Shown here: one piece after another, positions 63,085 to 63,465 of the stretch
Layout of the letters: the number at the start of each line of letters is the position of its first letter
Numbering within the stretch: the first letter of the stretch is position 1
Assembly (NCBI GenBank): GCA_001938485.1
Contig: MQRK01214350.1
Location: 1 to 64,000 of the forward strand
DNA from: Girardia tigrina
Taxonomy: Eukaryota
Length of the DNA stretch: 64,000 bases
Direction: 5' to 3'
Notes under the pieces: generated by a model
Told to the model about the DNA's origin: nothing
Database searches by the model: none
What the model saw: only the letters and a program-made list of their open reading frames with translations
Program-made: the position numbers and the translations under genes

Positions 63085-63465
63085 TTTGATAGCGTTTTCC
63101 CATCCACCTTCACTTATTATCCATGGAGTGATTTGCTGATTTATAAGTTTAACTGTATGATTTATGTAAGTATCTCTTGCACTCGGGAAAAATTTTATTT
63201 GATTATGAGTTCTAATTGCTAAATATGTTAATGATGCAACTATCTTTTCCTGATTTATATTTTTTAATAAAATTTTTAATACTTCATTATCATTTGTAGT
63301 TATTTCATTTTCTAAAAACAATTTATTAACATTATTAAATATGCATTTTAAAGACTCAATTATATTTTCTATTCCTTGACAAAGTTTTAAATTAAAATTG
63401 TAATCTTCTTTAATAACTTCTTGTAAAATATAGCATAAAATGTTATGAGTTTCTAATTCACTTTT
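63085..63465 (-). CDS. Bcl-2-like domain within the polyprotein
   Basis: BH2-like ITPWIISEGGWENA; BH1-like INQEKIVASLTY (NWGRIVA degenerate); the N-to-W spacing of 44 residues is close to Bcl-xL; helical upstream region. Confidence 0.72.

What the first reader, a model, noticed from the sequence alone, without database searches (positions are those of the whole stretch)
63085..63465. Retroelement-encoded Bcl-2-like protein
Seen: WIISEGGW (BH2) with a correctly spaced but divergent BH1 (NQEKIVA). A hydrophobic segment about 35 residues later also serves as the glycoprotein signal. Known: viral Bcl-2 mimics in large DNA viruses are often divergent at BH1, and Bcl-2 proteins are tail-anchored. 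Inference: signal-peptidase cleavage would leave a tail-anchored vBcl-2 that protects cells in which the element is active, such as stem or germ cells.
Basis: partly seen in the sequence, partly recalled or inferred. Interest (0 to 1): 0.8.

Follow-up and report, generated by a model that had tools for sequence, protein, structure and literature searches.

The report
Bcl-2 domain in Burro-type retrotransposon
This is a real but already published feature: a giant flatworm retrotransposon carries a captured cell-death-regulator (Bcl-2-like) domain just ahead of its envelope protein, and what that domain does is still untested.

Summary
Minus-strand 63480-63070 encodes a Bcl-2-family domain. A profile built only from retroelement relatives finds Bcl-xL (E 2e-5). 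A domain-trimmed model matches Bcl-2-fold proteins in its top 37 rows (Z 13.8; best unrelated 5.2), though a longer, poorer model did not. The domain runs in frame into the signal peptide of a mononegavirus-type fusion glycoprotein, followed by PR-RT-RNaseH-IN, in a flatworm genome. This layout is published for planarian Burro giant Gypsy elements (PMC6431247), so the feature is known. This copy is decayed. Added here: BH2 is conserved, and the BH1 basic residue is kept in 10 of 10 relatives, but the BH1 glycine is absent in all 10. The hydrophobic segment is the glycoprotein's own signal, also present in 13 of 23 proteins that lack Bcl-2. Signal-peptidase cleavage would plausibly leave a membrane-anchored domain, probably in the ER. 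A pro-survival role is the best guess (about 0.5) but is not shown, and the missing glycine argues against a standard BH3 groove. Stem-cell protection is untested for this domain; it is reported for Burro1's separate IAP region.

The parts
63070..63480 (-). Bcl-2-family domain (P0001 aa ~91-227). Six modelled helices: aa 93-113, 125-148, 154-161, 167-187, 189-213, 217-226.
   Evidence: AlphaFold model, mean pLDDT 60.6, core blocks 78-85; VIA-align Z 13.8, rmsd 2.6, 130 aligned to Hydra HyBcl-2-4; profile vs PDB, Bcl-xL E 2e-5; Pfam PF00452 E 0.0047
63235..63255 (-). Divergent BH1 (NQEK in place of NWGR) at the start of the central helix
   Evidence: aligns to Bcl-xL NWGR; R/K kept in 10 of 10 relatives, Gly in 0 of 10, Trp in 0 of 10, Asn in 3 of 10
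63100..63123 (-). BH2 motif WIISEGGW
62989..63084 (-). Charged, variable linker between BH2 and the signal
   Evidence: mean pairwise identity 14.8% (38 pairs) vs 23.9% (53 pairs) in the domain core; 22-52 aa long in the 7 proteins printed before the script stopped; pLDDT under 50
62917..62988 (-). Internal signal peptide of the glycoprotein; would be the C-terminal membrane anchor of the Bcl-2 domain after cleavage at A-x-A (after aa 278)
   Evidence: KD peak 1.78; (-3,-1) rule met at this register in 19 of 24 proteins vs 0-4 of 24 at five other registers
60771..62916 (-). Mononegavirus-type (Monjiviricetes) fusion glycoprotein, env. Broken in this copy: N gap 62498-62565, (TA)n run 62160-62191, frameshift near 61820.
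   Evidence: Pfam PF24664 E 2.2e-10 and 1.1e-33 on the two pieces; tblastn frame change
63751..63999 (-). Same frame continues upstream: in-frame TAA at 63751-63753, then 82 open codons to the window edge. Probably the interrupted Gag-side polyprotein.
   Evidence: no detectable similarity to the upstream parts of relatives or to a credible Pfam family
60019..60738 (-). Aspartic-protease region (partial; active-site stretch lies in a neighbouring frame)
   Evidence: Pfam Asp_protease E 0.0059; tblastn to P0011, P0016, P0017
57033..60062 (-). Pol: RT, RNase H, integrase in Gypsy order
   Evidence: Pfam RVT_1 8.7e-32, RT_RNaseH 1.5e-37, Integrase_H2C2 2.9e-19, rve 5e-10
56146..57027 (-). Accessory ankyrin-repeat ORF directly downstream of integrase
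   Evidence: Pfam Ank_2 E 2.3e-8; ankyrin repeats are listed for Burro (PMC6431247)
54071..54460 (-). Accessory exonuclease-like ORF, probably part of the element
   Evidence: Pfam RNase_T E 1.9e-6; membership of the element is inferred from strand and position

Best explanation
A Burro-type giant Gypsy retroelement of a flatworm carries a long-ago captured Bcl-2-family domain in frame between the Gag-side polyprotein and env. Steps: (1) SHOWN: Bcl-2 homology and fold, in-frame fusion to the env signal, and conservation across relatives only about 24% identical in the core. (2) INFERRED, likely (about 0.75): the internal signal is inserted into the ER during translation and signal peptidase cuts at its luminal end (A-x-A, after aa 278). 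The glycoprotein goes into the lumen and the Bcl-2 domain stays cytosolic, anchored by the leftover helix, one per Env made. (3) INFERRED, open: release from the upstream polyprotein by the element's protease or by cleavage at the ubiquitin-like domain seen in P0006. (4) INFERRED (about 0.5): the domain dampens host cell death through a non-standard groove that keeps the BH1 basic residue but not the glycine, so that cells making particles survive, alongside the IAP reported for Burro1. This particular copy is decayed and probably makes no functional polyprotein.
For: Profile of 12 retroelement sequences finds only Bcl-2-family chains in the 60 best of 123 PDB matches: Bcl-xL E 2e-5, ASFV A179L 6.5e-4, schistosome Bcl-2 2.2e-3. 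The domain model gives 37 consecutive Bcl-2-fold rows, then unrelated rows at Z 5.2 or less; Foldseek PDB and viral top rows agree, with no E below 0.001. All 11 relatives with the domain score 25.9-65.6 bits by leave-one-out; 0 of the other 46 hits exceed 3 bits. P0006 has Gag zinc knuckle, ubiquitin-like, Bcl-2 and glycoprotein in one frame, the layout published for Burro. Signal-peptidase register met in 19 of 24. No LxxxG[DE] BH3 motif in the window protein; 1 of the 6 relatives covering that stretch has one, shifted from the expected position, which argues against a Bax/Bak-type killer. Precedents: RVFV NSm precedes Gn, is cut by signal peptidase, sits on the mitochondrial outer membrane by its C-terminal TM and suppresses apoptosis (PMC4926171 passages). 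Burro1's B-IAP protects stem cells from caspase-mediated apoptosis (as cited in PMC13465017).
Against: The BH1 glycine is absent here and in 10 of 10 relatives, whereas the GR pair is called very strongly conserved (PMC9609553) and changing the glycine abolishes pro-survival activity in Bcl-2 and KSHV Bcl-2 (PMC2836074). The anchor helix is the env signal and exists without Bcl-2 in 13 of 23 proteins, so the domain is dispensable in related elements. The longer model (pLDDT 45.9) gave no clear Bcl-2 match: best Z 7.2 to an unrelated protein, KsBcl-2 and Bcl-xL at ranks 27-28, Z 5.6-5.7. Pfam scores stay below the curated cut-off here and in all 7 relatives that match. There are no expression, localisation or binding data. 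This copy has an in-frame stop upstream and a broken env.
Confidence: 0.5

Rival explanations
1. It has the Bcl-2 fold but not the apoptosis function: an ER-anchored scaffold that blocks innate-immune, autophagy or ER-stress signalling, as poxviral Bcl-2-like proteins (A46, A52, B14) do for immune signalling (their function is recalled, not from a call).
For: BH1 glycine and tryptophan lost in every relative covering the site, and no BH3 in register. An ER location is expected from the topology. Such proteins appear among the fold matches (ranks 30-36). The Atlas's nearest clusters are the atypical BCL2L15 and BID, at 0.78 and 0.76, which is a lead only.
Against: Those poxviral proteins score Z 5.9-7.2, far below cellular pro-survival and Bax-type members at 11-13.8. 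BH2 and the BH1 R/K are kept strictly, as expected if the groove contact matters. Variola F1L lacks NWGR and the canonical salt bridge (PMC9609553), and vaccinia F1L still binds Bak and blocks apoptosis (PMC2836074).
Confidence: 0.25
2. Structural role in particle assembly: the domain is the cytosolic part of an Env leader. It tethers the Gag-side polyprotein to the membrane or links capsid to Env, as the foamy-virus Env leader peptide does (recalled).
For: Fixed position immediately before the env signal in the window and all 9 relatives where both parts are present. Gag to env in one frame in P0006, and env to protease or Pol in one frame in P0005, P0011, P0016, P0017 and P0044.
Against: 13 of 23 proteins have unrelated sequence at this position. 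Keeping BH2 and the BH1 basic residue is not explained by a tether.
Confidence: 0.13
3. Pro-death or pore-forming, Bax-like effector used to release particles or remove cells.
For: Bax chains are among the top Foldseek rows and rank 5 in VIA-align, Z 12.4.
Against: No in-register BH3. The BH1 glycine used in BH3-in-groove dimers (recalled) is absent. The element has an env, so it needs no lysis.
Confidence: 0.05
4. Neutral relic or chance resemblance: a helical spacer with a BH2-like word and no current function.
For: Single-sequence scores are weak (Pfam E 0.0047; PDB phmmer Bax E 0.22). One of two models failed to match. This copy is decayed.
Against: Motif columns are nearly invariant across relatives about 24% identical, while the linker drifts to 15%. 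Profile and fold evidence agree. The motif appears in 0 of 100 shuffles.
Confidence: 0.07

Closest known systems
Burro (GYPSM1; Burro1-4) giant Gypsy LTR retroelements of planarians (Jurka 2007; Grohme 2018; PMC6431247)
   Same: BCL2-like domain directly upstream of an in-frame mononegavirus-type env that lies between gag and pol; ankyrin repeats; flatworm host. Relative P0006 also has the Gag, Ubl, Bcl-2, env order described there.
   Different: Decayed, partial copy. Gag, MATH, Ubl and LTRs are not in the window. No BIR or dUTPase match in the ORFs scanned. An exonuclease-like accessory ORF is not in the published list I read. Which Burro family this is was not determined.
Burro1 B-IAP (Lee et al. 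2026, seen only as cited in PMC13465017)
   Same: Apoptosis-regulator module carried by the same kind of element; reported to protect stem cells.
   Different: B-IAP is a RING+BIR caspase-level inhibitor. The Bcl-2 domain would act at the membrane step, and I found no test of it.
[quoted passage not shown]
   Same: Fold (Z 10-13.8), BH2, BH1-BH2 spacing, BH1 basic residue, C-terminal hydrophobic helix.
   Different: No BH1 glycine or tryptophan; no recognisable BH3; made as part of a polyprotein; anchor is an env signal peptide rather than a post-translationally inserted tail.
Rift Valley fever virus NSm
   Same: Anti-apoptotic protein upstream of a glycoprotein in one precursor, freed by signal peptidase and held by a C-terminal TM (PMC4926171).
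   Different: Processing analogy only; no homology was tested, and NSm is not known to me as a Bcl-2 fold.
GAG-ENV-POL errantiviruses with gB-type env in Platyhelminthes, Nematoda and Bryozoa (PMC13524379)
   Same: Gene order; class III-type env flanked by a signal peptide and TM.
   Different: The main text has no occurrence of 'bcl' or 'burro'; many env relatives here lack the domain.

Membership tests
Bcl-2 family (fold/homology) | Helical bundle around a central hydrophobic helix, superposable on Bcl-2 proteins | tested here: met
   Z 13.8, rmsd 2.6, 130 aligned; top 37 rows Bcl-2 fold. The longer low-confidence model gave only Z 5.6-5.7.
Bcl-2 family (fold/homology) | Sequence homology over BH1-BH2 | tested here: met
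   Profile vs PDB E 2e-5; Pfam E 0.0047 over profile positions 34-100
Bcl-2 family (fold/homology) | Reaches the Pfam PF00452 curated cut-off (31.4 bits) | tested here: not met
   17.9 bits here; best relative 23.6
Bcl-2 family (fold/homology) | BH2 W-x4-GGW | tested here: met
Canonical pro-survival Bcl-2 / vBcl-2 | BH1 XXGR with conserved GR | tested here: not met
   NQEK; Gly in 0 of 10 relatives, R/K in 10 of 10; definition from PMC9609553
Canonical pro-survival Bcl-2 / vBcl-2 | Binds BH3 peptides, Bax or Bak and blocks apoptosis | not testable with these tools
Canonical pro-survival Bcl-2 / vBcl-2 | C-terminal tail anchor to the mitochondrial or ER membrane | tested here: inconclusive
   A hydrophobic helix and a signal-peptidase site are present, but the helix is the env signal and is shared by elements without Bcl-2; localisation unknown
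Bax/Bak-type effectors | BH3 motif LxxxG[DE] in helix 2 | tested here: not met
   Absent here; one shifted match among 6 relatives covering the stretch; motif definition recalled
Burro giant Gypsy elements | BCL2-like domain followed in frame by a mononegavirus-type env upstream of PR-RT-RH-IN | tested here: met
   definition from PMC6431247
Burro giant Gypsy elements | Ankyrin-repeat accessory coding | tested here: met
   Ank_2 E 2.3e-8 at 56146-57027
Burro giant Gypsy elements | BIR/IAP and dUTPase-like domains | tested here: inconclusive
   No such Pfam match in the ORFs scanned; the copy is partial and decayed, and the published dUTPase call came from HHpred
Burro giant Gypsy elements | Gag, Ubl and MATH upstream in a ~5,000-aa polyprotein; total over 25 kb with LTRs | not testable with these tools
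   The window ends 250 nt upstream of the ORF; no second LTR copy in the window. Relative P0006 shows Gag, Ubl, Bcl-2, env.
Burro giant Gypsy elements | Planarian (triclad) host | tested here: inconclusive
   A boule-like fragment in the window has flatworms as its best named hits; about 30% GC; no triclad name among the hits
Burro giant Gypsy elements | Sequence identity to named Burro1-4 | not testable with these tools
   No named Burro sequence was available; the look-up of names for the relatives could not be made

The most novel reading that the evidence does not exclude
Burro-type elements define a distinct Bcl-2 subfamily that has replaced the BH1 glycine family-wide while fixing the basic residue, and that borrows the Env signal peptide as its anchor. 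Every Env made would then leave one membrane-bound death suppressor. Together with the element's IAP this would be a two-level apoptosis block supplied by a retroelement to planarian stem cells, contributing to host regeneration or damage tolerance: a functional vBcl-2 in an LTR retroelement.
Probability: 0.2. Interest if true: 0.72.

Novelty: already known. Interest (0 to 1): 0.33.

Why it matters
The domain's presence and position are in print (PMC6431247, citing Grohme 2018), so the sighting itself is not news. It still matters as an open test. One apoptosis module of these elements (B-IAP) is reported to help host stem cells, and the Bcl-2 module appears untested in the papers I could see. 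A Bcl-2 protein that works without the BH1 glycine would extend the rules of BH3-groove recognition. A signal peptide doubling as a tail anchor would tie cell survival to envelope synthesis. If the domain has no apoptotic activity, it would instead show a retroelement repurposing the fold as poxviruses did.

Tried and rejected
Word-indexed protein searches found nothing for the domain: 0 of 609 candidates and 0 of 7,999; relatives came only from the full HMMER scan (57 hits). Single-sequence PDB search: the best hit was an unrelated 'Polyprotein' chain, 6h3x (E 0.032, 42 residues), taken as chance; Bax E 0.22, BCL-2 E 1.6. The longer model did not recover Bcl-2 as top fold. P0010 was dropped from alignments A2/A3 because its N-terminus is a mitochondrial L47 domain, probably a chimeric prediction; P0042 (FN3/EGF protein) is a spurious hit. 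The apparent conservation at P0001 aa 61-75 in A2 is an alignment artefact: the upstream 183 codons show no similarity to 10 relatives. Glycoprotein tree (18 rows, 337 columns; rows with under 110 aa upstream or under 95 aa downstream left out, P0002 added as a longer stand-in): largely unresolved. One clade of Bcl-2-bearing rows is rejected at p-AU 0.006, and the label is no more clustered than shuffles (74 of 500 as low). I read this only as compatible with losses or module exchange, not as proof of repeated capture. No LTR pair in the window. dN/dS could not be computed: there is one DNA copy, and the nearest protein copy P0003 differs at 7 of 85 residues, none in NQEK or BH2. The contig collections that might hold more copies were closed, so copy number and host range stay unchecked. 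No complex prediction was run, for want of a host partner sequence. Names and sources of the 57 relatives could not be looked up. Grohme 2018 and Lee 2026 were not held. A search for Bcl-xL G138 with NWGR returned 0 papers. The Atlas gave no usable hit for the 54461-55231 ORF.

Full report
Observation. The finding lies in a minus-strand reading frame, 63750-61777 stop to stop, translated as P0001. NQEKIVA is at 63255-63235, WIISEGGW at 63123-63100, a single strong hydrophobic segment at 62988-62917, and the glycoprotein start motif AFDC at 62910-62899. The BH1-BH2 spacing (44 residues) matches Bcl-xL (45, counted on the alignment), and NQEK sits on NWGR. A WxxxxGGW word occurs once in the window's six frames and in 0 of 100 shuffles.

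Is it Bcl-2? The single sequence is borderline: Pfam Bcl-2 E 0.0047, 17.9 bits against a cut-off of 31.4; PDB phmmer Bax E 0.22; Atlas leads BCL2L15 and BID at 0.78 and 0.76, below the reliable range. Relatives settle it. A full HMMER scan with 310 residues spanning the domain and the glycoprotein start gave 57 proteins. Eleven carry the domain: each scores 25.9-65.6 bits against a leave-one-out profile, and 0 of the other 46 exceed 3 bits. Seven of the 11 match Pfam Bcl-2 on their own at E 7.7e-5 to 0.055, and 0 of the 9 other proteins scanned do (20 of 57 scanned). A profile of these retroelement sequences alone returns 123 PDB sequences; the 60 shown are all Bcl-2-family, led by Bcl-xL at E 2e-5. 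An AlphaFold model of aa 84-287 (12 sequences; mean pLDDT 60.6, core 78-85, tail under 50), aligned to 48,161 chains, gives 37 consecutive Bcl-2-fold rows. Hydra HyBcl-2-4 leads at Z 13.8 (rmsd 2.6, 130 residues) and the first unrelated row is at 5.2. Foldseek against PDB and viral models ranks Bcl-2 proteins first but with no E below 0.001. Against this, the longer model (aa 61-393, pLDDT 45.9) gave only generic helical matches, with KsBcl-2 and Bcl-xL at ranks 27-28. I weight the better model, which agrees with the independent profile result, and put Bcl-2 homology at about 0.95.

What kind of Bcl-2? Among the 10 relatives covering each site, BH2 is conserved (W210 9, G215 8, G216 10, W217 9). 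At BH1 the basic residue is kept in 10 of 10, but the glycine and tryptophan in 0 of 10. These relatives were found with the window sequence as query, which may favour shared residues. Passages of PMC9609553 describe BH1 as XXGR with the GR pair very strongly conserved and the arginine forming the hallmark salt bridge to the BH3 aspartate. PMC2836074 states that changing the glycine abolishes pro-survival activity in Bcl-2 and KSHV Bcl-2, while highly divergent F1L still binds Bak. So one half of the hallmark is fixed and the other is lost family-wide. No in-register LxxxG[DE] BH3 was found. Mean pairwise identity is 23.9% in the core, 21.4% in the first helices, 14.8% in the linker, 17.9% in the signal and 38.7% in the ectodomain. 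The domain is under constraint, but less than env.

The anchor. The (-3,-1) signal-peptidase rule is met two residues before X[FY]DC in 19 of 24 proteins, against 0-4 of 24 at five other registers; here the site is A-x-A ending at aa 278. Of 23 proteins with at least 110 residues upstream of the glycoprotein motif, 10 (the window and 9 relatives) have the Bcl-2 domain and 13 do not. The helix is therefore the env signal first. Its use as an anchor follows from topology and is inference, and a co-translationally used signal should insert in the ER. A viral precedent exists: RVFV NSm precedes Gn, is freed by signal peptidase, reaches the mitochondrial outer membrane through its C-terminal TM and suppresses apoptosis (PMC4926171 passages).

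The element. Downstream are a Monjiviricetes-type fusion glycoprotein, protease, RT, RNase H, integrase, an ankyrin ORF and an exonuclease-like ORF. Relative P0006 has a Gag zinc knuckle, ubiquitin-like domain, Bcl-2 and glycoprotein in one frame. A boule-like host fragment in the window has flatworms as its best named hits (44 hits among 70 candidates). This copy is decayed: an in-frame TAA at 63751-63753 with 82 open codons beyond it, an N gap at 62498-62565, a (TA)n run at 62160-62191, a frameshift near 61820, and further frame changes around the protease. Whether the TAA is decay or a natural boundary is not proven, because the upstream stretch aligns to no relative.

Prior knowledge. PMC6431247 (section 7 read whole) reports that a BCL2-like motif was noted in Burro elements (Grohme 2018). 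It also reports that a Ubl lies upstream of BCL-2, and that the region between BCL2 and protease is an in-frame env matching mononegavirus fusion glycoproteins; it calls the apoptosis link worthy of experimental confirmation. That is this architecture. PMC13465017 (passages) cites Lee et al. 2026 for Burro1's RING+BIR region protecting stem cells from caspase-mediated apoptosis. PMC8532177 (passages) reports BURRO1 as an intestinally enriched transposon derepressed in differentiated cells when SMEDWI-2 is lost, which does not point specifically to stem or germ cells. PMC13524379 (passages) describes GAG-ENV-POL elements in Platyhelminthes without mentioning Bcl-2. Grohme 2018 and Lee 2026 could not be read, and no supplements were read; either may already cover the domain's function. 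In the listings I saw no test of the Burro Bcl-2 domain and no statement of the signal-as-anchor idea or the BH1 glycine loss. That is a limit of those searches, not proof of absence.

Mechanism and verdict. Most likely (0.5) the domain is left cytosolic and membrane-anchored by signal-peptidase cleavage and restrains cell death through an atypical groove. Rivals are a non-apoptotic scaffold (0.25), an assembly tether (0.13), a relic (0.07) and a Bax-like killer (0.05). It works like a tail-anchored viral Bcl-2 in layout and belongs to the Bcl-2 family by homology and fold, but it fails the canonical pro-survival BH1 test and should not be filed as a proven vBcl-2. The element fits the Burro architecture; assignment to a named family was not testable. 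Novelty: already known. Interest 0.33, for a real and testable open function on a published feature.

Noticed in passing
window 54071-54460 (-): Exonuclease-like ORF (Pfam RNase_T, E 1.9e-6) among the accessory ORFs downstream of integrase; not in the Burro domain list I read.
   Followed up: partly
window 54461-55231, 55204-55710, 55703-56320, 53563-54090, 52785-53498 (-): Run of same-strand accessory ORFs with no credible Pfam match. 55703-56320 ends in a long hydrophobic tail; 54461-55231 gave no Atlas hit.
   Followed up: partly
window 57033-63999 (-) and relatives P0005, P0006, P0011, P0016, P0017, P0044: Env is in frame with Gag upstream or protease/Pol downstream in relatives. A single polyprotein would thread through the ER with Gag tethered by the env signal and PR-Pol tethered by the env TM (inference).
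   Followed up: partly
relatives: Bcl-2-bearing and Bcl-2-less elements are intermixed on a poorly resolved glycoprotein tree; one clade is rejected at p-AU 0.006, hinting at repeated loss or module exchange.
   Followed up: partly
window 6838-8485 (-): Boule-like RRM host gene fragment with flatworm best named hits. tblastn also finds integrase-like sequence at about 8415-9059 on the + strand right beside it.
   Followed up: partly
window 24610-27970 (+): A second, unrelated small Gypsy-like element: Gag, CCHC, protease, RT and an integrase-like ORF by inspection.
   Followed up: partly
window 164-1069 (+), 15692-16171 (-): RT fragment and a similar ORF ending in a GIY-YIG-like stretch, resembling Penelope-like elements (label recalled, from inspection).
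   Followed up: no
window 41278-42822: Perfect 40-nt inverted repeats 1.47 kb apart enclosing transposase-like ORFs: a Tc1/mariner-type DNA transposon (label recalled).
   Followed up: no
window 45132-45763 and 50242-50355: A 21-nt tandem array and a 57-nt tandem duplication next to a (TA)n run; possibly near the element's 3' end or LTR, which could not be delimited.
   Followed up: no
P0010, P0003: P0010 joins a mitochondrial ribosomal L47 domain to the glycoprotein, probably a chimeric prediction. P0003, a close copy (78 of 85 identical), changes frame just before the signal, which would leave a Bcl-2 domain without an anchor.
   Followed up: partly
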